From positions 1-57,742 of the forward strand of contig NW_014569514.1 of the NCBI RefSeq assembly GCF_000743755.1: DNA of 57,742 nucleotides, read 5' to 3'. Below, one piece after another: positions 601 through 56,343 of this stretch. The notes beneath the pieces were generated by a model that was not told where the DNA came from, did not search any database, and saw nothing but the letters and a program-made list of their open reading frames with translations. The DNA is from Blastocystis sp. subtype 4. Taxonomy: Eukaryota. The position numbers and the translations under genes are program-made. Position 1 is the first letter of the stretch. Every line of letters starts with the position of its first letter.

Positions 601-1516
601 ATGGAAGAAGATACAAATAAGAGTGCTAACACTAATACACAGCTAACCCTTGTAGATCCTGTAATAGATGCTGTTGCTTATCTACAAGAGATTGCAAAGA
701 ATCCAAGCAAAAAGAAGTACCAATAGGAGGTGAGGATGAGGATTAGTCTTCAGACTAATCCCGAATTATTTGATATCTTGGCCTTGATCCGAAATCGAAT
801 GTATCGAAAACCGAATCGGTCGTTGTCAAAACACAAGATGTAGGGAATAATCAAGTAATTGAACTGCAGAGCTGAAAAGAAGGAAAAAATTCAAGGAAGC
901 ATACATACAGATAAAGTTAAGGGGAATGGAAATCCTCAGCCAGTTGTAACTGATTATTGCTGTGATTGCTCTCTACCTATCTGTAGGTTTCGGTTGCTGT
1001 TATGGATGTAGCTGGTGATTGGACTCCTTGGGAATCTCAAAGTCCTATAAAAGCAGCAAGCAAACTTGGGCGAGGTCGTAGAATTGGTCAGTCACAATAT
1101 CAGATGGAAACATATTTGTCGTGTGTGAACAGCATCTATGGACAGCGAAGTGTTATTCCATATGGACTTCACAGCACGCAACTTGTCGTCTTATGTATGT
1201 TCTTTTATCGTAGTACTTGTTTCGACGTGCTCGACTCCTTGGTCAATTAGCCTCGGATCTCGTTCCACAAACCCCTTTAGGTACTTCCTTTGATATAAAT
1301 GAATTGTAGAGAAATGGTCGCCTCATGAAGTTGCTGTTTTTGAAGCGGCGATGTGTGTGTATGGAAAGGAGTTCCATCAGATCAGTGCCATTCTGGGAAC
1401 AAAGACTACAGCCGAAGTCATTGAATTCTACTATTCTTGGAAGTTTTCTAGCCACTATTACTCATGGAAAGCACATTATAGGAGTGCGAAGACCGATGCC
1501 GTGCATCGGGGTGGAT
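601..1516 (+). CDS. ELM2/SANT-type chromatin protein (multi-exon); stop probably created by polyadenylation at T1516
   Basis: Last exon KWSPHEVAVFEAAMCVYGKEFHQISAILGTKTTAEVIEFYYSWK is a SANT/Myb repeat; RIGQSQYQ resembles an ELM2 start; GT-AG introns of ~30 nt join the exons. Confidence 0.75.
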
Positions 1517-1520
1517 CATC

Positions 1521-1536
1521 TGTTTGTTAACAAACA
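1521..1536. terminator. Palindromic double polyadenylation motif TGTTTGTT/AACAAACA serving two convergent genes
   Basis: Perfect 16-bp palindrome between the 3' ends of the SANT gene and PSMB4. Confidence 0.85.
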
Positions 1537-1540
1537 GAAG

Positions 1541-2482
1541 AAACAAGCCATTTTGTGTCCAGAACATAAGGCTCACCCATCTCACAACCTTCATTCGTCA
1601 CCTTTGCGATTTGTATACGATTGCTTGCAAAGCAATTTCTGTAATAACCAACACGAGCACATTCCTCTAACATGGATCGAGCTTCTTCCTCTGTCATGTC
1701 AGGATGATATAAATCACGCATCAGAGGAAGACAAAAATAAACTCCATAAGCCGTAGACATGAAATCCTCTTCAAAGGCAGCTCCCAACTTGTCGACAACT
1801 CCAAGGAATCTACAAAGAGTTATTTCTGTTGACGGAAACGGAAATGCCATCTAGAAGCAATTCCTCTGTATCAACAACTCTCTTCGAGTCGGTATGGTGC
1901 AGAATGAACAACAATCAAACAACAACACACCACCTACGGTTTTCCGTCCTGCATTCCCACAACAACAATGTTATTCCACAGCGGTTTCATATCTGTTCTT
2001 GCATTATATAACCAGCAACGTAGATAGTTGAATGTAGCAGAAGCAGTCATTAGCGAATTGTCGTCCATGAAACAAGACTCATCTCTAGACATTCACATCG
2101 AAAAATGCATTCGTACAAGATACGATCCAATTCTTCACAAATACAAGTGAAGTCGCTATATTCACCATCGAAGGCAATAATAACATTGTTTCGAAGAATG
2201 TGCATTTTCTGAACACGCTTAAACATGGCCATACTTCCATAAGAAGCTAACCGATAACAACATCAAACTTTTCATTACCAAGGGTATCTGTACATAGAAG
2301 GACTCCATCTTTATATTTTGCTGCAAATACTGCACTACCTGTAACAATAGGATCACTTCATAGTCAAATCTGGATCCGAAAACCTACGTGGTTCGCTTTA
2401 CTGGGACGGAAATTGTATGATCTTTTTTCTGACTAATGAACTGCATCGATATGAGCGACAAATTGAGAAGTGAAGACAACAT
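1541..2482 (-). CDS. PSMB4: 20S proteasome subunit beta-7 (PSMB4/Pre4); stop probably created by polyadenylation at T1541
   Basis: DPIVTGSAVFAAKYKDGVLLCTDTL, ASYGSMAMFKRV, GEYSDF, LGVVDKLGAAFE, AYGVYFCLPLMR, YYRNCFASNR...DTKW. Confidence 0.9.
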
Positions 2483-2782
2483 GGTTTATTGCCAACTAGC
2501 TTGAATTCCCGTGATCATCGGTTCTTTCTTTCTATTGAACAGAAAAGTTGCCACTATTCTAGAATAGCTTAATGGCTCATTTTAAACAACAGTGATCCTG
2601 AGGATAACTCTAAATAACATGTATTGAAAGCAGATTCAGATTGAAAGGCATTTATAATAGTGAGACTTTTTGAAAGGCGAATTAAGCACAAACCCTACGA
2701 TCACACGGGAGTTCACGAAGAATAGCTATTGTCCACTTCGTTACTTGTTGCAGTACATGTAGATGACTCCATAGGAAATAAA

Positions 2783-5700
2783 ATGGAAGTATTCTTGTTG
2801 GATGGCAATGTTTGTTTCACTCAGAGTTTCTTCTTGTCGATATGATTTCTCCATTCGAACGGTTGGAAGAGCTCAATGTCTCTCCAAAGTCCAACTATCG
2901 TTGTTTGGAGTTGTCACCGAATGGATTACTGTATGCAGCAGCAACAACCAATTCCATTGAAATTTGGTCAGCTCAGGGAGAGGTTATGCTTCTAGCAAGA
3001 TGCCCACAGCAAAGACCTTCAGGATATAGTAAAGCCCTCTTGAATCGGATTTTTCTTATATGGAATGATAGCAGTGATTCTATTGTTGTTTTGCGCTCAG
3101 AAGGAATTGCAGATTTCTATGACATTGCGTATGGAACAAGATCCTTAGAGGACGTATATAGTGATCAAGACACATCGATTATGGTTCGGACGGCTTCTCT
3201 GAATATTAGAAATTCGGTCAATATCGAACAGTTCGGTTATCCCATTTGTACATGTCTCTATGACAAACGGATTATTGTTGCATCCGACAATGGAATGATT
3301 TGCGAACTCAATTGGAAAGGTGATAGTGTGGGTCGTCCTCTCTCTCGTTTTGTCCCTCTTTCAATCTTGGATTCATCTATTTCTTTAACAGATAAGAGTG
3401 TTTTATCTATGTCAGTTTGTCAAGAGCTTGAGTGTCTAGCTTTTGCCTTGTCTAATGGTAGTTGTCTTCTATTAGATATGTCTTCTTCCTCTTCCAAACT
3501 TCCTGTTCATGCCACTCTCTTTCATACAAACGCAATCGATGGAGTACGTATAGTCCAGTTCTGTCCAGGGTTACCACTCCTTGCAGTAACTTCGTCTCGA
3601 TTAACTGTGGATATCTATCGTATTTCGCGAGATCCGACACTTCAATTCTCTCGCATCACAACTATCGATGTCCGTCAATTTCCCCGTGTTTCACATGTTC
3701 CTCTTTATGCTTATGATTCGATTATTTCTCTGTGTTGGTGTCCTGGACAAATAATCCTTGCATTAGGCCTCCGATACCAAGGGATTATCGTCTGGTCATA
3801 TCATACTGGTGTTCTCTTTACATACAATGGCAACGTTTCTTCTTACCCTGTTGCTGAAGATGAAGAGGCGTTACAATGTAGTGGAGTTGCCTCTTCAACT
3901 GAAATAAGTTGTTGTGCATTCTCGATGACTGGAAGTTCTCTTCTCTTCAATGTCCCTTATGAACAAGTTATCAGTGCTCCAAACAATCAGGTATATTCCC
4001 GTGATAGTCGTCTCTTTCTTCAACGGTTTATGATTACACCTAATGTGATTCTGGCTACGTATTATTGTTGCTTGATTTTGAATACTAGAGAGAATTGTTC
4101 TGTTTTTGGTCATTCTGATACAATGCTCTATCATTTGCATACATCAGATATCTCTTCATTCGCTTTGCTTCCTTCATACTCACTCATTCCATATGAATTT
4201 CTATCTAGTGGTGAATTGATATTGGATCAAGTACAGTCACCATCAGGTAACAGTCTTCTGCTCTATACACATCACTCCATATGTGTTTATCAAAGTACAA
4301 AGGCACATTGGACACAAGCACTTCATATTGCATCGGTATGAGATATTGTTTGATTCATATTTGTAGGGATGTTGTATCACATCCGTAGCATGGCTCTCAG
4401 ACTTGTATATAATTGTTGCTACATCTCCTCAAGTTCCAAAACCTCTAGAAGCAACTCTCTTCGTTCTGAATGTCCGCTCTCTATCCTTTAGTCAAGCGGT
4501 ACAAGAGGTTGATTTGAGACTAGGTGATCCTTCTCTGGTTCCTGAGTATACTGTAGCTGAGAGTCTCCTACCAACTCATGCTCCTCTCCATAGTTATCCT
4601 CATATTGTGAGTATGCATTATTCTGATGGACAGTTACTCTGCTGTACTTCACATGGTGTATTCTATTTGTTTTCACTGCCAGATCTCAGTAAGTGTGAAT
4701 GATATGATTCATTCTCAGATGCTCTTCAGAATCCATTCACTTCACATCTTCCAATGGAATTCCAAACACGAGGAAATGTAGAAACAGCCTCTGGGATTCG
4801 ATTTGCATTCTATCTGCGTGTTCCATGTACACTAAAAAATGAAACAGAGAGTGAATTGGAGAGTGTTTTAGTTTGGCATCGAAATGGTGAACTTTCATAC
4901 ACATATCTTGCTGAGGAATCTCCTCAAGAGGTCCTCTTTTCATATTTGGATGAGATTGTGTACTGTGATCATGGAGATCGAGGTCATATCCAAGCATCAA
5001 TGAATCTTCCTAACTTCTTTCTCTTCATGAAATCATCGTCACTTACTGTAATTAAGTCCTATGATCTCTCATATAGGCGTGGATCCCTGAGTATGAGCAA
5101 CGACCTCCTGCAATGAATAATGAGAATCGAATGATTTCATCACAGACTGGAGGGTGTCTATATGGCTATGCATGGAGTAAGAGTATGCTAATATCACTGC
5201 ATCGAGGAAATGATGATCAGACAAGTAGTGGTGATAAGTCCTGGTTACAACCAATTGTATGAATGATAATCATATCTGATATAGGTTGTTTGTGGATTCC
5301 ATCTCCTCTTGGCTTCACTATTACAATCTCAGCACTACACAGTGGCTACAGCGTTACTGTTTATTGCATACTCTCAACATATTCCTTCACTCCTTCCATC
5401 TCTCGAGTATCTCCTTCATTCTGCTCTCAATTCAAATGATTCATCCTTCCTGACAGCTACACTCCAACTTCTTTCTCATATCCCTCAATTTACCCATCTC
5501 CTTGTTCGCTGTCTCCGAAAACAAGAACGTTCTACCTGGCCATTTGCAGTTCATGATGCTTCCGACATTCTTCGCCTCTTTCACTCCTTCTTGTTGAAAG
5601 ACGATCTTGAATATGCAGTAACAACGATTTCAATTCTTCAAGGCCTTCATTGCAGATTGAATGAAAAGAATGTGGTCGTTCCTGAAGATCCGAAGGAGAA

Positions 5701-6539
5701 CCAAATGCAGTCACTGAGTCAGCTGTTTCCTAAAGAACTGGAATGGGTTCCATATCATTTCAGTGAGGTGTTTAAAGAGAATTCGGAGGTGGACTGTATT
5801 GCTCATCGTAGTGGTTTACAGCTGCTTTTTGTAGCCTTAGTTCGAGAACGTTATGAGCTGCTTCAAGATGTGTACCGATTCCTGGAAATGGAGGTATGGG
5901 TAAACAAAGTGGCTGAATTCTAGGAAGCTCGACATGTTGAAGCAGGAGAAGCACTTCCACAGGAATTTCTCGTTGATCATGTTCTAACAGTGTTATGTTT
6001 GAATCTGCTTCATCAAGGGAATGTTCATCGAGTCATCACATTGTTCCAACATATTGAGTTTGCATGGAATGCAACTAATGAAGAAATGGAGGTCGAGAAT
6101 TATGCAGAGAGTCTTGATATTTTATTGGAGGGAAGTCATTGGATAATGCGTATGGAACAACGGGAATCAGAGGATATATTAATTAGTGAGCCACGAGAAG
6201 ATGGAGTAAGTGAAGCAGATATGGAGTAGGGGTAACAATAGGGAATGATGGATAGGTATCTATTGCATATGTTGATGTTAAAGGATTGTGCAGAATGGAG
6301 TCTATTATTGATGCTACTTCTATTGAAGACAAAACAGTTAGTTAGTTTTGCAATTGCAAGATCGGATTTATGGGATCGATTTGTGAGAGATTTCGAGGAT
6401 AAAGGCAAGTAGGAGAGAGATATAGTAGATTATTGATAGTGAATCAGTTGTTAATCTCCTCGATACTCTCTATGAGACAATTGAAGATATGAATAAAAAT
6501 GCAAACAAAGTATTTCATTCAATAAACAATGTACCTTAA
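2783..6539 (+). CDS. RIC1: RIC1-like Rab6 GEF subunit (beta-propeller N-terminus plus RIC1 domain); start approximate
   Basis: WD-like N-terminal ORF 2812-4341; RIC1-domain motif LEYLLH...LVRCLRKQERSTW...DDLEYAVTTISILQ; last exon ends NNVP* at 6537-6539. Confidence 0.75.
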
Positions 6540-9500
6540 CAATGGTTTGTTGGACCAACATCTAAATATGTCTTGAGAAGTTTCAGTTCTTCATCTTTCT
6601 CACTGATATCAATCATCACACAACCACTCATAGAAACATCATATACTTCATCATTTAGTGTTACATGATACAAAGCATGCATATCTTGTTGCTCTAATGC
6701 ACAGGATCCTGGATCAATCACTTCATCAAGACGTGATGAAGTCAAATATTCCTTGTACTGATCTCGATCAGCACCTTCACATCAATTCTTCTTATCTCAC
6801 TTACATTGGTATTCACTTACGGGTTGAACAGCTGTCTTCTTCAATTCATCATAATAGGAATGATAACTCTCATACTGCCTACAATTCAATTGATCCTTAC
6901 AGTCATACATCAAATCATGAAGAGCAATGTTCCGATGTGACGTGAAGACACAGTATTCACTCACTTTATCACTTACACGCCAATAATCATCCAGACGGAT
7001 ACTCCGAGGTCGTAGAGAAACACTTCCACGAATCGTTACTTGTCCTGGTGATGGTAATGAACCATTGGAAGGAGCAACTTGATCGCGAACACTCAGACGA
7101 AGATCTTCGTCTCCAGTTATCTCGCTCCGATCCTGATCCTTTTCCTCTCCAATTATAGGAGTTCGGAGCTGGGAACTTCGGCGTAGTGAAGATCGATTGT
7201 CTGTATCCACTTCATCCTCATCCTCATCATCTTCTTCTTGATTTCCCTTCAGCTTCTTCCCATCGTCCAAACCAACATACTGCACAGTTGAATGAGTACG
7301 TGTGTTCCAGTTCTCCCATGAACGAAATACAGTTGCTGGAACTCCAACCTCACCTTCATTGGCCATGGGAGATAAGTAATGCGGCTGGAAACAAGGAAGT
7401 GATAGAAGCTTGTCTAATTCACATGGTGAGTGTCTATATTCAATAAGACAGAATTCATCTTACGAAGAGTCGGCTTCAATCAACTGTTCCCAAACCAAAC
7501 CACGTTCATTACTGTGGGAATAGTACAGATCTTGAGATATGGATGGCAATGAGTGACAGAGCAAAGCTCCACAATAAGCACACAACAATGTATGTGAAGT
7601 GGGAGGTTTCTTACTGCAACAAGGACAGCGATCTGTGCTAGTACTTAAACGAAGAGGTTTCCACGGATCTCCATTAATTGATTGCTCATAAGTTAATAGA
7701 GGAAGAAACCACCACTTCTCAGGTGGAACAACACGTACCACTTCATCGTACGAATAACCGCGGTTATGTAAATAGTAATCATAGGTTGTTTTCCCGTTAT
7801 TAGTAGTATTTAAGAAGGCATGTTTTGTAGGTATAAATACTCCCAAGAATACATTCATAGCTTCCTGTTTGACTTTATCTGTAAATGTGTTGTTGTAATG
7901 ACGAAGAATGGTCGTGAATAATTCTTTTCGCTTCTTGTTCCCTTTTGTAATCTCAATCTTATTATGAGCATTGCTTCCTCCATATTGGAGACTAATAACA
8001 TCTCCTAGTTCCTTGTATCTAAAACTGAGACCAAGTGAATACACGATACAATTCAACAAGGAGTTGTTGGAGAGAGGATGATTCTGGTACACCAGGAGAA
8101 AACTCGATTCCCAGTGTGAAGAGCATTCGATACACGACTGTAAAGCTAAGGAAGAATTGAGCCACATTGGTTCGATCAAGACAGTCAATACAATTACTAC
8201 GCATCACACCTCGTTGCTCGAGATGATGGTTTTCAAGTAGACTCATTCGGAATGCATTCGTTAATCCTTCTATCTTAGAGCCATTTTTTACTTCATCTTC
8301 TTGATTCTCATTTTCTCTCATAACACGCCTATGAACCTCTGGTGAGATGTATGAGGCAAAGAAGGAAGTGGCACTATAATCGTAAGAATTAGACATTTCT
8401 ACTCAAGACTCATTCGAGAATGATACAACAAGATATCATGCAGGAGAGGATTCTCAACACTAGATCGCTTAGCAATATCAGCAAAGTCAATATGCCAATA
8501 AGTAATCTTCATTCCTGTTGGCATCTGTTTATTGACAAAGCTACAGCTTTCACGAAGTAGGTCACAGACAAGAGATTCCCTTGGGTGTTTCTCTTTCATC
8601 TTCACTAAGTCAAATACCTGAATAGGAGCTGAATAGCGCTGTAATAATAATGATAGATGTTTTGTGAAGGTTCGGCAGAGAGGATCATTTAGAACAATTT
8701 GAATAGGAGGTCGTGGGACTGCTACACTTACGTCCTGTTTCCAATAACCAGGAATACTACCACGAAGTTGAACATGACTGCATATATGTCCCTCTTCATC
8801 TTCAATGATAGTTTCAACTTCTACTTCGTTGGCCACATATCCATCATCATTGATGCCTCGCTTCAGATAACGAGGACCAGCATACATCCTAATATTAACA
8901 ATTGATTACAGAGAGTACCGACTACGACGAGCAATGAGTGTTAATTGAAACTGTCGACTATATTGAATACAACGTTGCTGAAGGAATACTCCATGAATGA
9001 GATAACAGTACCATCTGGATGAAACGCATAGACTGAATTCGGAGAGAAGATATGAATTCCAGACAAACATCTCTTGAGGTTGTGATGGACAATCATGTGC
9101 CTGAACGAGGATATTATGCTGAACACAATGAGATAAGGGATAACGATAACTAAAATAGAAACCTTTGGTGAGATCCACCATGTTGAAGAGACCAAGACAT
9201 TTCTCCTCCAAATCCTATAGATAAGAGCAAATACTCAATATTACATCCATTTCTGACTTCCCTGAGAGAAGACTGTGGAAAAGACTCTTTGATGAATCCA
9301 CAGTGAGGGGAATAATATCATAACTCTACAAATAAGAAGGATGGAATGAAGAGACAAGAATGGAATAGATAATGTGGCCCATGATGATTCCTTCAGGTTT
9401 GGTTTCTGTTGCGATCACTAAGTAGTAGTATCGAGTGAATCTAACAAAGCCAAGAATGGCTTTGGCAGAGGTTAGACGAGTCAAACCTCCCGTTCTAAGG

Positions 9501-13110: not shown

Positions 13111-13118
13111 TGTTTGTT
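13111..13118 (+). terminator. TGTTTGTT polyadenylation motif 3 nt after the UPF1 stop
   Basis: Exact motif; position -5 falls inside the TAA, implying no 3' UTR. Confidence 0.8.
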
Positions 13119-13147
13119 ACAATTAGTGTTTATACAAAAAGGAAAAA

Positions 13148-13221
13148 TGCTCAAACGGGGGATCGAACCCCAGACCTTCGCGTTATTAGCACGATGCTCT
13201 AACCAGCTGAGCTATTCGAGC
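13148..13221 (-). tRNA. tRNA-Ile (anticodon AAT)
   Basis: GCTCGAATAGCTCAGCTGGTTAGAGCATCGTGCT-AAT-AACGCGAAGGTCTGGGGTTCGATCCCCCGTTTGAGCA; A and B boxes, cloverleaf, followed by a T5 Pol III terminator. Confidence 0.97.
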
Positions 13222-13285
13222 ACGCTTCATTTTTTCATAGATAACTATACAAAGATATGAACCTGTATGCATCTCTATCCATACC

Positions 13286-17249: not shown

Positions 17250-18519
17250 ATGTTGGATGTTATACTTCTGATTTTAATTCTTTTCATTACTACGAATATT
17301 TCAAGGAGCGTAGAGTTTGTTTGTCATCAATGAGGAGTAGAGTTATTCGCAAGAACGTTTTTCCCTTACTGTCGTTTATACCAATCGTGCCTCTCTGCGA
17401 ATTGTTCCTACCCATCGTGCCTCTCCGCAGACTATTCCTTCTAATCGTACGTCTCTGCAAACTATTCCTCCCAATCAAACCTCTCTGCAAACTATTCCTC
17501 CCATTCGTTCCTCTTTACAGACTGTTTCTACCATACAACCTGATTCAGAACCTGTCATTTGGGGAAAACCACTGAAAGACGAGACCTGGAAGATTAGCAA
17601 AGCGCTACAAATGCTAATTGAAGGAAAACCTAGCGAACCAAATAATGTCATTATCTTCTCTCCAAATGTTTGGGCTGGATTTTGCAACAACTTTCGGACT
17701 ATTCGAGGACTTGCGCTGTATTCAATCCTAAAAGGCTTCAAATTGAGAAGTGGAGATAGTGGTTTTCAATTATAATTAGTTCTCTGGAAAGAGTATTTCG
17801 AGGTGATGAGCCCTACATTGTCTGTTCTGTCAAAGACTACTAGTCGGTCATGTGGTTTTATCGCGAACTTTTATGATAATGTTAATAATATGAATCTGCA
17901 TGGATGCTATTATACAAACGAAATCATGGATGTAACTGACCTCCTATTGAGTATCGAGGAAAATAGAAAGAAACTAGTTGAATTGGGTTTCTTTAGTGAT
18001 ATTCCGAAAAATGAAGAGGTCACTCACTTCCTTTCACTGGTATTTTTCCAATTGAATAGTGTTCTGCAAAAGGAGGTTGATGAATTCTATTCACAATATC
18101 GAAATGATTTTCTAGTTGGAATCCAGCTCCGAACTGGGGGCAAGTTGTCGGATTCTTATGAGAGTAGCATGTTTCTGACTGAGGAAAAACTACCATTAGC
18201 GTATGCATTTATTATGGAAGCAATTCGAAATACGACAATGCCAAATGTAACAGTGTTTTTGTCTACCGATTCATCGTATGTCCAAGCTGATGCTAAAAAG
18301 AATCTTCCTTACACTGTAATCAGTGCAGATATGTACAAGATTGGTCATTCATCGCCAGAGAGGCAACGTCAAAAAGTGCTTGATTGCACAAAGCGAGCCG
18401 TTGTTGATATCTATCTTCTATCTAAGTGTTCTGTTCTGATTACTACTGGTCATAGTTCATTTGGAGATACTGCAAATGCACTTTCACTTGCAACTACCAA
18501 ACTCCACCTCTTTGTATAA
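17250..18519 (+). CDS. Secretory-pathway fucosyltransferase-like protein (GT-B; NodZ/FUT8/GT37-like motifs) with a repeat stem
   Basis: Signal/anchor MLDVILLILILFIT; AGFCNNFRTI, VGIQLRTG, VFLSTDS, AVVDIYLLSKC...GHSSFG match the alpha-2/6-fucosyltransferase motifs I-III. Confidence 0.75.
17383..17532 (+). repeat. Five imperfect 30-nt tandem repeats encoding NRTSLQTIPP-like units
   Basis: NRASLRIVPT HRASPQTIPS NRTSLQTIPP NQTSLQTIPP IRSSLQTVST. Confidence 0.9.
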
Positions 18520-18558
18520 CACTACTTTTGCGGTCTTGTTTGTTGGATATCAAACCCA

Positions 18559-19308
18559 TTACTTATTGATTCCAAATGGAAGACGAGGATCACTGGCTGG
18601 TCGAAGCATTCTCCAGTAAGGAGGGAAATTCGACATAATCTCTTTTCTCTCAAGTACAAAAAATCCGTGTTTCTGGTAAAACGGGAGATTTACTTCCTTG
18701 GAACTCTCAAGATAGATTGGGTAATTGTGTTCATCTGCATACGAAGTCAGTTCTTTCATCATCTTGGATCCGTATCCTCGTTGCTTTTCTGCACTCTTCA
18801 CCCCAATTTGGAAGACATAGATATGATTGAACTAGATTCAAGTATTCTACAATCTCATACTGGTGGATGGTCACCGTTTGTCACAGTTGAAAAGTAAAAC
18901 ATCTATGAATTCAGTATCACCCACAATCACCTACTCGAGCGATTCCCCGCAACGATCCTGCGATATCATACCAATTCCAGGGTGTTAGTACCGATGAAAT
19001 GGCGTAAGAGTTACCCATTGGGCAGTTATCACGTATCCACCTACGATCATCAGGAATAAACAGGACTACCATATCATAGCACCTGTTTTCTCTTCATTAA
19101 TATACACACTACCCCCTTGTACACATGGAGGAAGAATGTTGTCATACAATCTTTGTAATCCATGCTCTTTGTGTTCATCTTTTCTTACTAATGCACACTG
19201 GACTATGGATAAAAAGATAGAAAGAAGATTACCAGGATCCTCACGGAAAGCATCTGTAAGTATTTCCTTGGCAATCGCCATATTGTTGTCATTGGAAGCC
19301 TTTTGCAT
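18559..19308 (-). CDS. GNAT-family N-acetyltransferase (puromycin-acetyltransferase-like)
   Basis: ILTDAFREDP...GAMIW; YIFQIGV...QRGYGSKMM (motif A); IYLESSKEVNLPFYQKHGF (motif B). Confidence 0.85.
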
Positions 19309-24104: not shown

Positions 24105-24167
24105 AGACTCGTTTTTTCTCATGTTTGATAAGAAACAATAGAATTACGTTAGATCAATCAACTATTG

Positions 24168-26449
24168 TTAACTTTGGTTGAAGAACATGGCAGTGTAATT
24201 TGGCAAGGGCCAATCATGATAGTCCACAATCTTTTCCAAATTGTCAACATGGAATCGAAGTTCATTCATTGCGGGAATGATATCATCTCTACAGAAGTAA
24301 GAGATCTGCTCCTCATTCTTAATACCGTTAACTGTATCAATGACTTGATTCAGTTTATTCAAGGCCTTAATGGAGTTATTAATCTCTTCAGACATGTACG
24401 ACACATAGGACACCTGATGTGTGATGTCTTGTCCAGGCAAAGCAGCAGACAACGCACTCAAGGATGAAGAGAATTGGGTTTGGGCTCGGAATACTGCAGG
24501 AAGGATTCGTTCGGTACACAATGCACGCATCGTACGAGCTTCAACGAGAATATCCTTATTGTATTGGTCCCACAGAATGCTTTGACGAGACGAAATCTCA
24601 CTGGACTTCATGATTTGCAAGGATGTGAACAACTCAACATTCTTAGGATCGGTCCATGCCTTGATTGCTTCAGGACTAGCGACATTGTTGGGAAGACCCA
24701 GTTCAGCTGCTCTTGAGATCCATTCAGAGGAGTATCCATTACCATTGAAGATAATCCGGTTATGTTTCTTGAGAATATCAGTGACTACCTTCTGAATGGC
24801 ATCATCCAGACATAGAGTCTGCTTGTTACGTAAGATCTCATCAGCAATGAAACGGAGAGAATCAGCCATAATGGAATTAATGACCATATTACTTCGAGCA
24901 GCACTCTGATTCGAACCAACAGCACGAAATTCAAACTTATTGACTGTAAAAGCAAAAGGTGAGGTTCGATTGCGGTCATTACCCTCACGATTGATTGTTG
25001 GAATTGACGTCACACCCAAACAAAGATTTTCATCGCCCATAGTCCGAGCAACACTTGTTTTCTTCATGTAGAGCTCCAGAGCATTACTCACATCTTCACC
25101 CAGATACATTGACATGATAGCAGGAGGAGCTTCGTTTCCTCCAAGACGATGATCATTGGAAGCACTAGTCACACATGCACGAAGCAGGTCACCATACTTG
25201 TCGACAGCACGAATTGAAGCAGCCACTGAGACAATAAATGGAATGTTTTTCTCGGGATGAGGACCCAACTCAAGGAATGTTGGTGTCTCCTTACTGCACA
25301 TGGACCAATTGTTATGTTTACCACTTCCATTCACTCCTTCAAATGGTTTCTCATGGAATAATGCTTTGAGACCATGTCGACGACCCTGCTTCTTCAAGAT
25401 ATCCATTCCTTGGAGATTCTGGTCCGTTGCAAGAATACTGCTACCATACAGAGGAGCGAGTTCGTACTGTCCAGGAGCAACTTCACGATGACGTGTAGTC
25501 GAAGGTATACCAAGCTTCCACATCTGAATCTCCACATCATGAATGAAGTTCAATGATTTTGTTGACATTTCAGCGAAGTACTGATCATGAAGCTCTTGTC
25601 CCTTTGGAGGAGAACAGCCAAACAGAGTTCGTCCGGTAAGCTTGAGGTCCGGTCGCTTATCATAGTACTCTCTCTGGATCAAAAAGAACTCTTGCTCAAT
25701 GCCACAGTTCACATTGATCTCCGTCTGAGGGTGACCAATGATCTTGAACAATCGATCGGCTTCTCGAATCAACACTTCTTGTGATCGAATGAAAGGGATC
25801 TTCTGATCTAGCACATCTCCCGTCCAGGATAGGAACACCGAAGGGATGTAGAGAGTGCCACCGTTATCGTGTTTGACAATCACAGGGTTACTGTTGGGAT
25901 CCCACACTGTAAAGCCGCGAGCCATATGGGTCTCACGCAAACCTCCATTCGGGAATGAAGAGGCATCAGGTTCACCCTTGATCAGCTTCTTGCCAGTGAA
26001 GTTACTCACTGCCTTCCCATTTACCCGAGTAATAACTAAACTTGAGAACCCCATCAAACCTATACAAGCATCTTGTTTCTGGGCCGTCACACCAGAAAGA
26101 GGTTGGAACCAATGACAGAAGTGGGTGACACCAAGTCCTTCGGCCCACTTCATCATAGCTTGAGCAACAACATCAGCCGTCTCCGGATCTAGTTGAATAT
26201 CAGGTTTCTTTCTGGCTTCTAGGACTCGCTGATAGCTGGATATCAAGTTACTTTCGAAATACGTACGCATATTTCGGGACCGACTTCTGAAGCATGTCAT
26301 CGTTGAAGGAGTACATACCAAAGACATCATCAATAAGGACAGAGGAAGAAGAGGAGACCATACGGCGTGTCATTCCAGAGAGAGTCTACCAATGTTCAAC
26401 CTCCAGCTGCTCTTACTGGTCTAGTGAGTAGACGGAGGCTGCTCAGCAT
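24168..26449 (-). CDS. glnN: Glutamine synthetase type III with a putative mitochondrial targeting presequence
   Basis: THFCHWFQPL, GEPDASSFPNGGLR, GIEQEFF, HREVAPGQYE, HEKPFEGVNGSGKHNNWS, HRLGGNEAPPAI, DRNRTSPFAF, FEFRAVG; N-terminus MLSSLRLLTRP/TLSGMTRRMVSS. Confidence 0.95.
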
Positions 26450-27171: not shown

Positions 27172-28416
27172 ATGAGCTCAAGTAGTGAAAATGGAGACAA
27201 ACAGCGAGTTAGAAATCGACGTGTTTCGTTTGATTATGCTCCAAGTGTGATAGATATCCAAATGAATGTTGGGCTATAAATACTGATTCAACATAGAGCC
27301 CACCAATTCTGACGATTCGTAGAAGGCCTAGTCATGTAAACGAGGTAGATTCGTGTTTTGGTCAGATTACATCGTAGCTGTCTATAGAACAGTTATATGA
27401 AGAGGCTCAACGATTGAAGTTGATTACAAGAAAAGATAGCCTGTTGAATATAGGAGGGGGTGATGATCCTAGAGGCGAAAAGCCTAAGAAGAAGCATCAT
27501 AAGAAGAATAGCAAGCATACATCTGGATCTCTTGGTGAATCTAATTCCGAAGCTTCAGATACTGATCCTTTTGTTTTCAGTAAAGAGGGTTTAATTGAAC
27601 AGTGATGGTGATATACTAGACTTTGTGTGTGAGTGTAGCGATGAGGAACTCCGAAGAATGGTCTCAAATGTATGGCGTGATTCCATGTTGGAGCGAATGA
27701 ATCTTGTTGGTATGCCCTACTATCACTCTTTATTTCAGGTTTGGAATATACTGCCGAGAGCTTTGATAATACAAATTTAGAAGAAGTCTATAATCTGTTC
27801 AAAGAGGTCACATATCCTTATACATGAAATATACGATCCCTTCACTGTACCCAATCAGCAGTCATCTACCTATTGTTGGGGAAGGAACACGAAGAGGAGA
27901 TGCAAGATGATATGTATCTATCATTGAATTTCCCTGCGTGTATGACAAAAGCAAATTTGATTCACTCGATCAAAGAGAATGCAGGAGTAGTGAAGAAGAA
28001 GACACGAAGAGAGCTTATTGATGAATTAGAGACAATCATTCTTTTTGCAATTCGTGATGATAGTAGAGGTACGAACCAGATTTAATTCAAAGATAAATGC
28101 AAGGGATATAACCAGTTGTTCTATTCTCCTTCCGAATATGTGGAAACCAACTTCGATGATGATGGAGAACTAAAGAGGGAACTAAAGAAACGAGGACTCC
28201 CTTGTCCTAAGTGAGGAAACAAGAAGATACTGACTTTTAGGAATATGCCTCAGCGCAAGAAGAAACTAATTGCTGTAATACGAAATGAGATGGGTTTGGA
28301 GATGTCTAAAGCGTTTGCTACTGTAACACGACTAGAACTGGAGTTCTTTAGGTATAAATCCTCCAGTGAAGATATCACAGATTTGTTCACACAGCTGTAT
28401 CATATCGTTTCTCAGT
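27172..28416 (+). CDS. Hypothetical protein with an RVxF (PP1-docking-like) motif and a SAP-like segment; contains an AT-AC intron; stop possibly poly(A)-created at T28416
   Basis: MSSSSENGDKQRVRNRRVSF; ELKRELKKRGLP..KKKLIAVI; exons link in frame through short introns. Confidence 0.6.
27812..27850 (+). other. U12-type (minor spliceosome) AT-AC intron, 39 nt
   Basis: 5' ATATCCTT, branch-point-like TCCCTTCAC, 3' AC; removal deletes an in-frame TGA and restores EVT/QSAVIYLLLGKEHEE. Confidence 0.8.
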
Positions 28417-28453
28417 ATCCTGTTTCTTGCAACAAAACAACATACAGTAACAT

Positions 28454-34040: not shown

Positions 34041-37000
34041 ATGATACTTGTTGCGTTGTTGCTTCTATCGTGTTCTACAGCTTTTACAGTACAGTGTACG
34101 ACTCCTGATATGAATACCTATTCACCTCAGGTTTCGTTTGTCTGTACCTTCTCTGAGTCTGTCTCTTTGAATCATGTGGAGAGAATCTTTGTTCCTAGCC
34201 TTGTATCAGTTTCTCCTCTTAGTGGAGAACATACTGTTTACACGGTTGTTGCTGAGGTGCAAGATGACACTCTCGGAGAAATTTCTCTCCTTCTGGGAGA
34301 GGGCGCTTTCGTCAAGGGTGAAGAGCGTTCTCCTGAGTATATGGTGACAGTTACTTGTTCTAACTGTGTTTTGGGTCTCATGTCTAGATGATTTTGTATA
34401 TGAACATGTCGATGTTGTTGCTACTATCAACCATCTTTCTGATAGACCTGATTTCGCTATCATTTACATCTCTGGAGGAATGACGGTTCGTCCAAACTTC
34501 CAAAGCATTAGCGAAATTGCTGTTCTTCCTCCAAGTGTGGACGTGATTAGTGTTGAAGCGACCCTAACCTCGTATGTGGTCAAGGTGTTCGTGAATGATC
34601 CCAATTCTCTGCGTGAGGCTACCATTCGGATCAAGGAAGGAGTGATCAGTTCATACTGGGGTCAGAAAACTAATATGGAGAAGGATGTGTCTATTGATGT
34701 GCCTCCTCTGGATCATAGTGAATCTACTTTCAAACTTTGGCCCACCTATGGAACGATTTACACTTCTTCGGATGAGTTCCGCTATCCTATTCCTACTGGT
34801 GGTTGTTCTGTTGATGTACAGTCATTCTCTGGAACGAATATTGAAATCGTGCGTGTCGAGAATGATGAGGTCTCACAGTATCTGGTTGCTCGTTTAATGG
34901 ACCCTTCGATCCCTGGTGGCATTAGCTTCATTGGTTATGCCCCTGACACTTGCACTTCGTACAACTATCCTGTGGAGCCGAGCGTGATGGTTGTGAAGGA
35001 AGCAGTGCCTACATATGAGATTACTTACAAGACCGGTACCTCTGGATGTGTGGATGTGAATGTACTCTTCAGTGCTCCTGTCAAGTTTGTGTCCGATGCC
35101 TATTTCAATATTACTTCTGTCTCTCAAGTGGCTCCATATGTGATAAGTACTCCAGTACATCCTGCAGGTCCTGAACACTATTTTGGCCTGGAAGCCACGA
35201 TGTGTATTAGTTCTACAAGCGATACTTTGTTGGTCTCGATGAATCGTGATGCTGTGAAGACTCCTTCTGGTGCTCTGATCCCTGAGCAGGAACCCATCTC
35301 TATCTTGGTATCGAAGTTGACTCTGGTTGTGAGACTGCTTCCTGACGACCTTCCTGAGTCCTCTCAGAACATGACTTACGTCATCCGTCAGCCGACTGTT
35401 ACCTTGTCCTTCGGCACTGACACTGATTCCTCTATTAACATGAATCGTTGTGACTTCTCGAAGGCTTTCACTTCTGACTATAACGTTGCTCTGTCAGTGA
35501 CTATGGAAACCTCGCGTCTGAGAGTGGCTGCTACTACCGAAGCTATCGATCACCATGTGATTGCCTTCCATGCCGATCGTGTTACTTGCAGTGGTTCCTT
35601 CACTGTTGAGTTCCTTACCCAAGAGTTCAAGTATGCCTATGATCCTCCCTTCCGTCCTGGTGACATTATCATCACTCGTGTCAATTCATATTACTCTGCT
35701 GAGTTCGACTTTGTGCCTCTTCGTAAGATTTTCTCATGGAACAAGATCTACTTCACTGATGCTGGTTGGGTGAACGAATATTATGGATTCATTGATCATG
35801 GTTCTGATGGTTACATCAGCTGGACTCCTAAGACTGATGTGAATGCAGGTACGGTTCAGCAGTGGAGTTATAAGGCTATGACCGACAAACTGGATCCTGA
35901 GATTCCTTTCGTCGTGAACACGGAGTATTCCTTCAACTATGAGCAACATGGTTTCCTGTTAGATTTCCAGGATAACTTGTTCATTTATGCAACTGGCAGT
36001 TGTGATACGAACTCTGTTTATGATGACTTCGGCCATATCAAATTCATTTTCGGTGTGTACTGGTCGTCTTCAGAATGGGCTCCTGAGACCTTCAATTACT
36101 TGGACATCACCTCTGAGTATTCTGCATTACCTCAGGTTCTGACCAATTATAGTATTGCTCTGGGCTTGGAGTCTAAACCTGTCCCTCGTGGAGTGAACTA
36201 TATGTCAATTGATCAAAATCACTTCTTCACTTTCACGTATACGTACTATCACATCATTGAGATGATTGTCGATAAGCAGAACTGGTTGACATCTCAGAAG
36301 GATCGATTCATAACAGCACCTCAAATCGCCTACATGGAACGTCCTATGGATTTCACAGTGGAGCAGGTCGATACAAGTGTCTGTTTCAACTTCGTGACAC
36401 CGTATACAGTCACACGGAATGTGGACATTGCAACGTGGAATATGTCGAGAATACGTCTCTACTTCAACGACGAGCCTTTGATCCCTGAGATTACTTACTC
36501 ATCTGCTGGTTATTGTGTGAACTATGGTAATCTTACGACGGAGGGTATAGTTCGTCTGGAGATGGAGAAGGGAGCTTTCGTCTATACAACAACCTCTACA
36601 AAGACTCCTGTGTCATTTGAGTGTGTGGCCTACAGCATGGAGATTATGATATATAATGTCCCTGAACTCATTGTGGACTACGCGACGGACTCTGTACTTC
36701 AGAAGGTGACTATCACATCCACTATTCCTTGTGTTGAGTGGGGATTCATCTCTGCATTCAACAGCAGGGCTGTACATATTTCTCAGTCCTCGACAGAGAC
36801 CGTTTTGGCTTTCACTGCTGTGGATGCAGGTGCGAAACTCTATCTTGATAATGGTTTCTGTAAGACTGCAGGACAGCGGGAGTCTGAACGACTTCTCCTT
36901 CCCACTCTCACGGTGGCTCCTATGTCTGGTCGCGAGACAATATTGCGTGAGGCCTTCTTTAAGGAGGTATTGAGCAAGCATGAGGTGAACACGATTAGTG

Positions 37001-40000
37001 TGAAGGCTCCTGATGTGGACTGGACATTGTCGACTGATCGTTTGGAAGATATGAACCCTGAGTGGAGTGAGTTTGATCCAGCGACTGGAGTCATAGAGTT
37101 AACATTCCGTTTCCCGATGGAAAATGGAAAGAAGACTGTAGTCTTGCCTCAAGGTCTATTTATCAAGAATCAGACCCTCTCACAGGGAATGACTCTTTCC
37201 TATTGGATGCAACAGGGTGAAGTCGATGTGATGCAATCTCTCACACTTCCTTGGGCTGAGTCGGTTCGTGAAGAATCTGTCCGAGAGGCAGTGTTCAGTG
37301 ATGGCTTTGTTGTGTCGAGTGGCAGTACTCCTACAAATCTGCTTCGTTTCGAGAACATGTGTCGTAGTATTGGTTACAAGATGGGTGCTTCCATACCTAC
37401 ATCTGTTAGCGTTGCTCTTATGGATGGAGACTGTGTGTATGGAGTACATGAGAATAGGATTATGGATCCTTATACTAATACGAACTCTGGATTTGAAGAT
37501 ACTTTGGAATTCGATTTCCTTCCTCCGATGGGTGAGGCTATGCTTGTAGATGAGATTACTAGCGAGAAACCTGAAACGAATCGTTTCTACTGGAATCATT
37601 CTCCTGTAGTGGCTCTGTTTTTCAATGAGCCCCTTGTTCATTTCAATGAGTCACTTCTTCTAATCACTGTCGATCATTGTGATATCGTCTCCGCCAGCCA
37701 TACGATTGAAAATGATCAGAGTATCATTCACTATAGCCTTTCGAACTGTGAGGAAGGACCTATTCGTGTGGATGTCGTGGATAACATCGTATTGCAGGAT
37801 AATGACGACAACCTCTGTGTGTCTCATGAGTGTATTAGCAATTTCCCGTTGTTGTTCGAGACAGACTATACAGCTCCTAACATCATTATCAGTACTGTTG
37901 AAGCATTATATGGAAGCGAGATGGATGTTTCCTTCGAAATCTCGGAGCCTGATACAACATTCACATGCAATTCAATTGGTATTGCTGTGGAGAAAGTGAA
38001 CTTCGTGGTTACTCAGGTTGATAAGTCAACTTGTCATTACTCCTTCACTCCTGAACCTGTGAATGGAACATACATTCTCTTGTCTGTACCTGCTGGTCGC
38101 TTCGTGGATAAGGCCTTGAATCCTAACGTTGCTTTCAAGCCTTTCGGTATCCCAGTCCTCAACAAGGGTGCTCAGATCTCTGTAGTTGCTCCTACTTTTA
38201 CGAATATGATGAAGACAGAGTTCACTCTCTCCCTCAACTACACATGGCTTTGTCCCAACTATGAGCACTTGTTCCCTTCAACCTTCCAGTATGATCGTAC
38301 TCTGGCCCATATTGAGAAGAATGACGAAGGTCAAGTCGTGGATGGAACCTTCATTCAGACTTTCTCTATCACTTTCCTGAACTTTGATGCGACTCATAAG
38401 GACCGCCACAGAAACATCCCTATTTACATTCCTTCCAGAGTGTGTATCAACCCACTCGGTCTCTACAACCAAGGAGTGACCTTCTATATGACTTTCGACA
38501 ATACGCATACTGTGCCTTCCGTCACATTATTAGACCGAGAGTCTGATGATAAAGACTTCACTGTGGATATCACTTTTAATGAGGTTCGTAGTTTTGGAGA
38601 GAAGGAGCCTAAGGAATATGTGGTTGTAAGTTATGCCAATCAGACGTTGAATTGTAATGTGACTCGTCATACTGAGGCCGTCTCTTTCACTTACAGAGTC
38701 AAGTGTCCTCTGAATGAAGAAGGAAACGTAAATGTGACTATTCTTGATGGTGCTGTGGTGGAAGTAACAGGTACTCCTTCACAGACCTTCTCGAAGTTAC
38801 TGCGCATTGATAGATATCCTCCTATGGTGGTTATATCTTTTACTAAGGGAAACACTTTTGGTCCTGATATTATCGAGCTCCCAATGCTAATGAATGCCAC
38901 AGAGGTGATGACTGTACCACAAGATAAGAATTCCAGCTGCTTCGGGATAGACCACGAGAAAGGCATTAAGGTCCAGGTGAGTCCTCTTCCTTCTCAGGTT
39001 GCGAACTGGGAAGTCATGGTGACAATGATTCGTTTGTTCTCGGAGCTCCAAGCTGGTTCGTTCAATATCTACATTAAGGAGCATTGTATGAAGGATGAGG
39101 ATGGGAACTACAACGTCCAATCGAATAACCTGACCTTCTACTATGACTTCACAACTCCTAACGTTACTCTAAATTGTCCTTCTTCGACTGTATGGCGGAG
39201 TATGACTATTACTGGAACGATGGACGAACCTTGTCACCCACTCACGGAAGCCAATATCGTTATGCCGGATGAAAACTGCTCTATAGATAGCGGTAGTCTT
39301 AGTTCGACTGAGACGGCCTTCTCCTTTACGGTGTCTTGCAGTGTGATTGGTAACTACCAGTTCGGTCTGCGTGGTGTGAAGGATCTGGTGGGTAACGAGG
39401 CTCGGATCATAGGTGTGTGTAATGGAAACTTTACGGTGAATGGACCTAGAATTGATTACGAGATTCGAAATCTGGTTAATGATAGATATATCAACACTCC
39501 TTCGTTCACAATCTATCTATCTGTTTCTTCTTGTGCTTCAATGAATCTTACCGAGAATAATGTGATCGTCGAGAATGTGAAGAACCTGCAAAGGACACGA
39601 ATGGCTACTTGCCAATGGAGATTAACTGGAAGTGCCGAGGAAGATGGTCGGGTGCTGATTCGTGTATTATCAGGTGCTGCTATAGATATATATGGAGCCC
39701 CTTCCCTTTCGTTGTTGATTGACGACTTCTTTAGCTATCAAGCCAAGCCTGAGGTGACCACTATATCACGTAGTCTTCTGCCTTCAGGTATGACAAGTGA
39801 TGTGTATATCTGTTATGATACGAGTATTGTGCGTGGTGAGGGACATGTGCTGACAGATGGAGGATGTTCGGATGCTTCGGTAGATCGTGTTGAAGGTAAC
39901 TGTGTGTACATGCAAGTGGCAGTGACAACTGGAGAGCGTTGTTATCTGTATTTGGAAGAGGATCTCGTCAAGACTGCCTGGGAGTTGAGTTCAGTTGGTC

Positions 40001-46000: not shown

Positions 46001-46116
46001 ATTATATCTATGAGAACATGGGAGACGAGTGTCAGTGCTTCATTACTAATGAGAAGTGCGAGTGTAGATGTGGTAAGGAGAATCTAGTTGACACTGTGAT
46101 TGGTATGTTCCTCTAA
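34041..46116 (+). CDS. Giant (~4,014 aa) secreted protein with many bacterial-type Ig-like domains, FN3 domains and a six-Cys C-terminal module
   Basis: Signal peptide MILVALLLLSCSTA; one intron 34357-34387 then an 11.7-kb open exon; recurring D.AGN and D..PP.V linkers (Big-type), GLNANTNYRV and GLKPETEYRV (FN3), Big_5-like C-terminal repeats. Confidence 0.88.
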
Positions 46117-46130
46117 ATTGTTGTAAAGAG

Positions 46131-46138
46131 TGTTTGTT
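46131..46138 (+). terminator. TGTTTGTT polyadenylation motif of the giant Ig gene
   Basis: Exact motif 14 nt after the TAA. Confidence 0.75.
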
Positions 46139-51752: not shown

Positions 51753-51860
51753 TCGTGTTTGTTACAAAGAAGCGAACTATGAATGGAACATCCGAATGTA
51801 CATAAATCGCCTAATAAATTCCACACCACTCTTACACAAGCCAAGACCCATAACTAGAGA

Positions 51861-55912: not shown

Positions 55913-56051
55913 GACTATTCGTAATATGTGGTATGTTTGTTCCAACAAACAGAAGAATCCTCTTTGGTTCCAAATAGAATGTGAATCAATGTGATGATTC
56001 GACTATCAGTTTGGATATGATTCATATGAAACAAGAATAATATAAGAAAAA

Positions 56052-56343
56052 GAATCAATCCACAGTCGATAACAACAATTCTAACAAGATGATAACAAAT
56101 GTCATGTAGACCCGTAATCCAAGTAACCAGAAAGGAGGTAGGTTTTCTGTGCTCTGTTGCCAGCCTCCAGCGGTCCCCCACTCATTAAGAATCAGGACTT
56201 CTCGAATTCCTAAGAGAAATCCTTATTCACCTTCCTAGTTATTTGGGCAAGTCATTGACTATTTCCTATCAAGCCTGAAAGACATGCTACCTTCCATAGA
56301 TCAGCTCCCACTTGGGTGACAAGTTGACGTGACTCAACCCAGC
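56052..56343 (-). ncRNA. Signal recognition particle RNA (7SL)
   Basis: ~292 nt; Alu-like 5' GCTGGGTTGAGTCACGTCAACTTGTCACCCAAGTGGG; helix-8-like GGAGGCTGGCAACAGAGCA; 3' end pairs with the post-Alu segment; T5 Pol III terminator at 56047-56051. Confidence 0.82.

What the first reader, a model, noticed from the sequence alone, without database searches (positions are those of the whole stretch)
1505..1550. One palindrome TGTTTGTTAACAAACA appears to terminate two convergent genes, both needing poly(A)-made stop codons
Seen: the 16-bp palindrome at 1521-1536 gives TGTTTGTT on both strands. On each strand the base 5 nt upstream of the motif is a T in codon position 1 (T1516 for the SANT gene, T1541 for PSMB4), and neither frame has a stop before it. 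Established: Blastocystis cleaves and polyadenylates about 5 nt before TGTTTGTT, which can turn a terminal U into UAA. Inference: a single bidirectional element defines both transcript ends and both protein C-termini, with no 3' UTR on either mRNA.
Basis: partly seen in the sequence, partly recalled or inferred. Interest (0 to 1): 0.85.

Follow-up and report, generated by a model that had tools for sequence, protein, structure and literature searches.

The report
Back-to-back cut signals, two stopless genes
In the gut protist Blastocystis, two genes that face each other end at two back-to-back copies of a known message-cutting signal; a relative has real stop codons at exactly the predicted cut points, so here both stops were likely lost from the DNA and are likely supplied by the poly(A) tail, a tidy new example of a known mechanism.

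Summary
TGTTTGTT sits at +1521 and -1536, inside a perfect 20-bp palindrome (1519-1538), the longest in the window. Both spliced frames reach a codon-position-1 T five bases before the motif without a stop. A caveat: both frames also meet a genomic TAA four codons later (SSVC*).

New evidence: a syntenic relative (L003-L007, one lineage, 76% protein identity) has genomic stops at the same codons, TGA for PSMB4 and TAA for the SANT gene, against TCT and TCA here. It keeps the motif pair, but as an imperfect 15-bp overlap. Two public models end the SANT gene through terminal introns, but these lie in conserved coding sequence.

Best reading (0.77): two independent head-to-head copies of the known Blastocystis downstream element, with both stops made by poly(A). 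A special palindrome or hairpin function is not supported. No RNA reads were examined. The mechanism is published; this paired case was not found in the papers searched. The scan earlier noted analogous back-to-back signals in Giardia.

The parts
601..1516 (+). Myb/SANT (DUF7952) gene, five introns; predicted 252-256 aa ending ...HRGG when cut after T1516
   Evidence: Pfam DUF7952 34.4 bits (cut-off 33.4) and Myb_DNA-binding 24.4 bits (cut-off 24.4); exon map from P0007/P0012; open frame
1516..1516 (+). Predicted poly(A) attachment base, first T of codon TCA; aligned to the TAA stop of the relative
   Evidence: 5 nt before motif; relative reads HRSG*; the cut itself is inferred from PMC4159000
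1521..1528 (+). TGTTTGTT downstream element for the SANT gene
   Evidence: relative has TGTTTGTA shifted by one base
1529..1536 (-). TGTTTGTT downstream element for PSMB4
   Evidence: exact copy at the same distance in L003-L007
1519..1538 (.). Perfect 20-bp palindrome formed by the two abutting motifs plus 2 bp on each side
   Evidence: identical in L001 and L002, not kept in L003-L007
1527..1530 (.). Overlapping in-frame genomic TAA codons at the palindrome centre (+1528-1530; -1529-1527), each giving SSVC* on an uncut transcript
1541..1541 (-). Predicted poly(A) attachment base of PSMB4, first T of codon TCT; aligned to the TGA stop of the relative
   Evidence: relative reads WPA* with the T of TGA 5 nt before its motif
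1541..2446 (-). Proteasome beta7 (PSMB4) gene, four introns; predicted 227 aa ending ...KWLV
   Evidence: Pfam Proteasome; best PDB matches beta-7 / beta type-4, E about 1e-21; introns picked by eye from candidates and homology; open frame
1538..1545 (-). One-mismatch motif (TGTTTCTT), possible alternative site: a cut after T1550 would end PSMB4 three codons earlier, before the conserved Trp; absent in the relative
1398..1405 (-). One-mismatch motif downstream of PSMB4 inside the SANT last exon, possible read-through site; no match within two mismatches on that strand of the matching stretch of L003 other than one at L003 2645
1417..1481 (+). Two different terminal introns used by public models (1417-1451 in P0007; 1443-1471 in P0012), both reaching TAG at 1479-1481; likely annotation artefacts or a minor splice form
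   Evidence: 1443-1471 is 25 of 29 nt identical to the relative, 10 of 10 residues identical, 3 changed codons all synonymous, acceptor AG not kept at that position

Best explanation
Two convergent Blastocystis genes end at two abutting, head-to-head copies of the known TGTTTGTT element, and each copy likely directs cleavage of its own pre-mRNA after a codon-position-1 U, so that poly(A) would create UAA and leave no 3' UTR on either mRNA. Shown: the motifs, their register, open frames up to both Ts, and genomic stops at the orthologous codons of a relative. Inferred: the cuts themselves (published rule, 96% of 2,419 mapped ST7 sites), and loss rather than gain of the stops (no outgroup here). 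Likely history: the 3' UTRs shrank until the cut fell inside each stop codon, as in the relative (T|GA and TA|A). Bases after the cut then no longer entered the mRNA and drifted to sense codons (TGA/TCT, TAA/TCA). The SANT motif sits one base closer here, the register a U-only stop requires; this turns a 15-bp overlap into a perfect palindrome as a by-product.
For: Register and open frames. In the relative the first bases of the two stops are 25 nt apart, the same as T1516 to T1541, and the proteins end at the aligned residues. Seven loci fetched: 2 identical to the window across the junction (L001, L002) and 5 of one other lineage, over 99% alike. The three non-Blastocystis SANT homologues found end 14-16 residues after the second WK; the poly(A) end gives 15, SSVC gives 19. 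No + strand motif within one mismatch lies between 1522 and 2460, so the SANT transcript has no nearby fallback. Published: the motif lies four nt downstream of the cut and 372 of 2,419 ST7 genes get stops this way (PMC4159000); the motif is enriched at ST4 transcript ends (PMC12129017); mutating it together with two upstream Ts cut reporter output 324-fold (PMC6395660).
Against: No RNA or proteomic data were examined for these two genes. P0012 comes from an annotation said to favour RNA-supported introns and splices 1443-1471 to a genomic TAG. Both frames have a genomic TAA four codons later. PSMB4 has alternative one-mismatch sites at 1545 and 1405. The motif alone is not sufficient: several exact copies in the window sit at no evident gene end (2809, 19308, 55951). 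The comparison rests on one other lineage, and the direction of change is unrooted. A cut one base off either way would give non-stop mRNAs, and ST7 ESTs show some 3- or 5-nt spacing.
Confidence: 0.77

Rival explanations
1. The SANT gene mainly splices a terminal intron (1443-1471) and ends at the genomic TAG at 1479-1481 with a 35-nt 3' UTR, so only PSMB4 needs a poly(A) stop.
For: P0012 ends FYYSWNTL. The 29-nt GT-AG segment has the typical size. That annotation pipeline is described as choosing RNA-supported introns (PMC12129017 passages).
Against: The same pipeline prioritises models that contain a stop. P0007 uses a different intron to reach the same TAG. The segment is 25 of 29 nt and 10 of 10 residues identical in the relative with only synonymous changes, while six ordinary introns in the same alignment are 44-61% identical. 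The acceptor and the TAG are not kept in the relative. Splicing would delete the H-Y-x-x-W-K motif shared by all homologues aligned.
Confidence: 0.08
2. Transcripts read through the palindrome (for example because the stem-loop hides the motif) and both proteins end at the genomic TAA as ...SSVC.
For: In-frame TAA on both strands. The pre-mRNA can fold an 8-bp stem over the motif (z -1.9 and -2.0). PSMB4 has a downstream one-mismatch site at 1405.
Against: The motifs are exact and in register on both strands. The relative's stops fall at the cut codons. There is no downstream + strand site for SANT within 900 nt. SSVC* is the automatic reading of an in-register gap-0 pair, so it needs no selection.
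Confidence: 0.06
3. PSMB4 is mainly cut at the upstream one-mismatch site (after T1550), also by a poly(A)-made stop, giving ...DTK*.
For: TGTTTCTT at -1545 has a T at -5 in codon position 1. Closely spaced alternative sites exist in ST7 (6 clusters).
Against: It would remove a Trp found in 120 of 120 homologues aligned and in the relative. The site is absent in the relative.
Confidence: 0.05
4. The palindrome acts as one structural unit (RNA hairpin or symmetric DNA site) that terminates both genes, like the giant-virus hairpin rule.
For: Longest perfect palindrome in the window. Pairs within one mismatch at gaps -1 to +2 number 3 against 0.25 expected (p 0.002).
Against: Perfect symmetry is not kept in the relative, and its PSMB4-strand fold is ordinary (z +0.68; the other strand -1.70). 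Of 16 exact motifs, 11 have no partner within two mismatches at those gaps. Other junctions use gap 10 or crossed motifs. The gap range was chosen after seeing the data, includes the focal pair, and the null ignores clustering at gene ends.
Confidence: 0.05

Closest known systems
Polyadenylation-created termination codons directed by the TGTTTGTT downstream element in Blastocystis (Klimes et al. 2014, PMC4159000; Gentekaki et al. 2017, PMC5608401; Lind et al. 2025, PMC12129017)
   Same: Same motif, same four-base spacer, terminal T in codon position 1, no upstream stop, and public models distorted by suspect introns. The relative's T|GA matches their class of genomic stops rewritten to UAA (90 cases in ST7).
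   Different: Here two such genes face each other with only 24 nt between their last templated bases and the two motifs abut. An orthologue shows genomic stops at both positions. The passages and searches seen do not describe such a pair.
Overlapping 3' ends of ST4 gene models resolved by the motif (95 pairs; KNB46045/KNB46046 example, PMC5608401)
   Same: ST4 neighbours whose ends make sense only once poly(A) stops are allowed.
   Different: That example invokes a new stop for one gene of the pair and mentions no fused or palindromic motif in the text seen; the figure itself held no readable text.
Dual-use stop codons and compact poly(A) signals in Giardia (PMC11529991); back-to-back Giardia signals in this scan's earlier notes
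   Same: Genome compaction brings 3'-end signals and stop codons together; head-on copies read as a palindrome.
   Different: The Giardia signal lies upstream of the cut and overlaps a genomic stop. The Blastocystis signal lies downstream, is discarded, and the stop is completed by the tail.

Membership tests
Blastocystis poly(A)-created stop codons | Organism is a human-clade Blastocystis that uses the downstream element | tested here: met
   P0007, encoded by this contig, is labelled subtype 4; motif 16 vs 3.5 expected; ST4 enrichment reported
Blastocystis poly(A)-created stop codons | TGTTTGTT (up to two mismatches) four nt after the last templated base | tested here: met
   exact on both strands
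Blastocystis poly(A)-created stop codons | Last templated base(s) are T, TA or TG in frame, with no earlier stop | tested here: met
   T in codon position 1 on both strands; no internal stop in the spliced CDS
Blastocystis poly(A)-created stop codons | Predicted C-terminus fits homologues | tested here: met
   genomic stops at the aligned codons in L003-L007, one lineage; SANT tail length 15 vs 14-16 in three other homologues
Blastocystis poly(A)-created stop codons | Poly(A) tail observed at the predicted base in ESTs or RNA-seq | not tested
Hairpin-directed bidirectional terminator (giant-virus hairpin-rule type; features recalled, and named notes) | Stable stem-loop conserved in relatives | tested here: not met
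   window z -1.9/-2.0; relative z +0.68/-1.70; perfect palindrome not kept
Hairpin-directed bidirectional terminator (giant-virus hairpin-rule type; features recalled, and named notes) | Most gene ends carry a hairpin and cleavage occurs within it | tested here: not met
   11 of 16 exact motifs have no inverted partner within two mismatches at gaps -1 to +2; the published cut lies before the motif
Proteasome beta7 / PSMB4 | Best sequence matches are beta7 | tested here: met
   PDB beta-7 / beta type-4 chains E 1e-21 to 1e-11; other beta subunits E 1e-6 or weaker
Proteasome beta7 / PSMB4 | C-terminal extension that clamps the two half-proteasomes (19 residues in yeast, PMC8961534) | tested here: not met
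   2 residues after the last Trp here and in the relative (6 if SSVC) vs 11-21 in 120 of 120 homologues aligned; a shortened tail, not a different subunit

The most novel reading that the evidence does not exclude
Fused head-to-head motif pairs are a selected, genome-wide way to end convergent Blastocystis genes. In the gap-0 form each motif's partner supplies the AA of an in-frame backup TAA four codons past the cut, a built-in fail-safe that let both genes lose their encoded stops; the pair may be processed as one unit that couples the 3' ends of the two genes.
Probability: 0.12. Interest if true: 0.65.

Novelty: new member of a known kind. Interest (0 to 1): 0.38.

Why it matters
It is a compact before-and-after picture of stop-codon loss. 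One lineage has genomic stops exactly at the cut; the other has sense codons there, which is what Lind et al. (PMC12129017) propose should happen once selection on the encoded stop is relaxed. It extends the comparative case to ST4, where PMC5608401 left the mechanism as likely. It indicates that two public models of the SANT gene end wrongly. The 26-bp junction is a minimal two-way test cassette for the transfection systems now available (PMC6395660; bioRxiv 10.64898/2026.04.28.721505). The mechanism itself is known, so the surprise to a specialist is moderate.

Tried and rejected
No whole genome was held, so no genome-wide palindrome count was possible; counts are for this window only. No RNA runs were obtained. 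The representative-protein search never ran. The profile search for full-length PSMB4 found 1,081 proteins; none of the 120 listed is labelled Blastocystis, so no public PSMB4 model was compared. Scans of viral and prokaryotic contigs for a third lineage found none (89 and 116 pattern hits, 0 confirmed). Rfam finds nothing at the junction. I first read the second exact pair (55934/55951) as another poly(A)-stop gene; rejected, because the minus-strand frame there overlaps an SRP RNA match (56057-56343) and has no Pfam support. Three-mismatch partners at gap -1 (46131) were not counted, because they also occur beside 13111 and 22975 and at gap +1 beside 16404. The ST4 proteogenomic paper cited (Armengaud et al. 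2017) is not held: a look-up by a recalled DOI failed and two searches gave 0 papers; its C-terminal peptide table may bear on this. Literature searches for a prior description: Blastocystis + TGTTTGTT (5 papers); Blastocystis + palindrom + polyadenylation (1 unrelated review); a five-term search at two terms minimum (79 papers, 20 listed, no listed Blastocystis paper with 'convergent genes' or 'tail-to-tail'); 'palindrom' and 'convergent' occur 0 times in the main texts of PMC5608401 and PMC12129017 and in supplement 2 of PMC4159000. Most supplements of PMC5608401 were not searched or hold no text.

Full report
OBSERVATION. The motif TGTTTGTT occurs at 1521-1528 (+) and 1536-1529 (-). The perfect palindrome is 20 bp (1519-1538), the longest of 15 of 12 bp or more in the window. 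The motif is enriched in the window (16 vs 3.5 +/- 1.7; 0 of 100 shuffles). The + gene is a Myb/SANT DUF7952 protein and the - gene is proteasome beta7/PSMB4. A protein encoded by this contig is labelled Blastocystis sp. subtype 4 by its sources. Spliced models run open to T1516 (757 or 769 nt) and T1541 (682 nt), each 3n+1, so adding A residues there gives UAA; a cut one base earlier or later gives a non-stop message. Both frames also meet a genomic TAA four codons later and would read SSVC* on an uncut transcript. That follows automatically when a T at -5 is in codon position 1 and the partner motif supplies AA.

KNOWN RULE. Klimes et al. (PMC4159000; parts 1-2 of 3 of the main text, part 1 of 3 of supplement 2, and a term search of it) found the motif four nt after the cut in about 96% of 2,419 ST7 sites. 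They report 372 stops created by poly(A) and 90 genomic stops rewritten to UAA, and warn of artificial terminal introns in gene models. Gentekaki et al. (PMC5608401, passages) give 26% for ST1 and call the process likely for ST4. Lind et al. (PMC12129017, passages) find the motif at ST4 transcript ends, not in tortoise isolates, and propose loss of stops by relaxed selection. Li and Du (PMC4360255, passages) report U as the commonest attachment base, so a T at -5 is not rare in itself. Li et al. (PMC6395660, passages) show the motif matters for reporter output.

COMPARATIVE TEST. A metagenome scan with the last PSMB4 exon gave 7 loci from 142 pattern hits. L001 and L002 match the window (100% and 99.97%). 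L003-L007 are one other lineage (over 99% alike, 75-76% protein identity, GC 48-53%; not identified) and are syntenic over the block. There PSMB4 ends W-P-A-TGA with the T of TGA five bases before an exact motif, where the window has W-L-V-TCT. The SANT gene ends H-R-S-G-TAA with the middle A five bases before TGTTTGTA, where the window has H-R-G-G-TCA. The first bases of the two stops are 25 nt apart, as are T1516 and T1541. So both ends predicted from the motif fall on codons that are true stops in a relative. The relative's motifs overlap by one base (15 bp, one mismatch). The window's SANT motif is one base nearer the T, the only register in which a TCA codon can yield a stop. This is one independent lineage, and the direction (loss here) is inferred from the literature, not rooted.

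CONFLICTING GENE MODELS. P0007 ends ...PLLLMESTL and P0012 ends ...FYYSWNTL. They use different terminal introns, 1417-1451 and 1443-1471, to reach TAG at 1479-1481. P0012 comes from a pipeline that favours RNA-supported introns but also favours models with a stop, so a minor splice form is possible. Against it as the main form: 1443-1471 is 25 of 29 nt identical in the relative, all 10 residues are identical with 3 synonymous changes, six ordinary introns in the same alignment score 44-61% (one of the six was delimited 3 nt off), the acceptor and the TAG are not kept, and the segment carries the H-Y-x-x-W-K motif shared by all homologues aligned. The three non-Blastocystis homologues end 14-16 residues after that WK; the poly(A) end gives 15.

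IS THE PALINDROME SPECIAL? The window RNA can fold an 8-bp stem (z -1.9 and -2.0; 10 and 5 of 200 shuffles as good), the relative less consistently (z +0.68 and -1.70). I read nine candidate convergent junctions by eye from a codon score and Pfam (a tenth region, 18480-18700, was viewed and dropped because no facing gene was evident). Results: gap 0 at 1521 and at 24122 (one mismatch each, both genes with genomic stops); gap -1 at 51756 (two-mismatch partner); a three-mismatch partner at 46131 (background level, not counted); gap 10 at 28421; crossed motifs with overlapping stops at 6521/6544; gap 2 at 55934, where the minus-strand neighbour is an SRP RNA; two unresolved (16404; 19308/19402). 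Pairs within one mismatch at gaps -1 to +2 number 3 against 0.25 by circular shift (p 0.002). That range was chosen after viewing, includes the focal pair, and the null ignores clustering at gene ends. Tight pairing recurs but is not obligatory; 11 of 16 exact motifs lack a partner within two mismatches at those gaps.

MECHANISM (0.77). Each pre-mRNA runs past its GU-rich motif, is cut four bases upstream of it, and gains a tail that completes UAA; neither mRNA keeps a 3' UTR. Register, open frames and orthologous stops are shown. The cuts are inferred from the published rule. The binding factor (a short CstF-64 homologue) is the hypothesis of PMC4159000. The palindrome is most simply two copies of one motif pushed together by compaction. 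Rivals: SANT terminal splicing to a genomic TAG (0.08), read-through to SSVC (0.06), PSMB4 cut after 1550 (0.05), one structural element (0.05). No RNA or peptide data were examined, which is the main gap.

SIDE RESULT. Beta7 keeps only 2 residues after its last Trp in both lineages, against 11-21 (median 18) in 120 of 120 homologues aligned. These were the top-ranked of 1,081 hits to a profile led by P0004, mostly unnamed, so a biased sample. In yeast the 19-residue extension promotes half-proteasome dimerization (PMC8961534, passages). The relative has a genomic stop there, so the short tail does not depend on the poly(A) reading.

NOVELTY. The mechanism is known. A fused convergent pair with both stops made by poly(A), and an orthologue with stops at both cuts, was not found in the searches listed under Tried and rejected. 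Subscription papers and most supplements were not visible. PMC11529991 (passages) and bioRxiv 10.64898/2026.04.28.721505 (passages and section 6; supplements closed) add context only. Earlier notes of this scan judged analogous back-to-back Giardia signals to be by-products of compaction (unchecked); no earlier notes exist for this genome. Verdict: observation confirmed; interpretation largely right on the stops and overstated on the single element; new member of a known kind; interest 0.38.

Noticed in passing
window 1541-1552 (-); L003:2570-2584: Proteasome beta7 lacks the C-terminal extension in both lineages (2 residues after the last Trp vs 11-21 in 120 of 120 homologues aligned). That tail clamps half-proteasomes in yeast (PMC8961534).
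   Followed up: partly
window 1810-1937 (-); L003 about 2173-2313: PSMB4 intron 4 is 128 nt in a genome of roughly 30-nt introns and is partly conserved in the relative, with a shared 7-bp closing stem, a conserved inner block and 2 of 26 predicted pairs changed on both sides. It looks like an intron-hosted RNA, possibly an H/ACA snoRNA (label from recall); no Rfam match.
   Followed up: partly
window 2450-2830; L004 about 750-1650: The relative has an intron-containing Rab-like GTPase gene ending in KCC* (family recognised by eye) between PSMB4 and the RIC1-like gene. The window lacks it but has an exact, apparently orphan TGTTTGTT at 2809, near where that gene ends.
   Followed up: partly
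window 6521-6551: Apparent convergent junction with crossed motifs: the two stops overlap in TTAA (6536-6539) and each one-mismatch motif lies in the last codons of the other gene. The reading frame of the + gene's last exon was not verified.
   Followed up: partly
window 24122-24137: Second gap-0 motif pair (one mismatch each) between an RRM gene and a glutamine synthetase III gene, both with genomic stops and short UTRs.
   Followed up: partly
window 28416-28452: Junction where both facing genes might also use poly(A)-made stops (T at 28416 on +; TG at 28452-28451 on -), motifs 10 nt apart; frames unverified.
   Followed up: no
window 55934-55951 and 56057-56343 (-): Second exact motif pair (gap 2). 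The minus-strand motif lies about 100 nt downstream of an SRP RNA match (Rfam RF01855, 114 bits) with no evident protein gene to serve.
   Followed up: partly
window 13147-13222 (-): tRNA-Ile(AAT) facing the end of a UPF1-like gene whose TAA is cut at TA|A by the motif at 13111 under the published rule.
   Followed up: no
window 34348-46116 (+): A 3,922-codon stop-free frame with Ig-like and fibronectin III matches, unusual for so intron-rich a genome.
   Followed up: no
window 24168-26369 (-) and 17776-18519 (+): Intronless glutamine synthetase type III and a NodZ/fucosyltransferase-like gene, both of families common in bacteria (recalled); possible lateral transfers, not tested.
   Followed up: no
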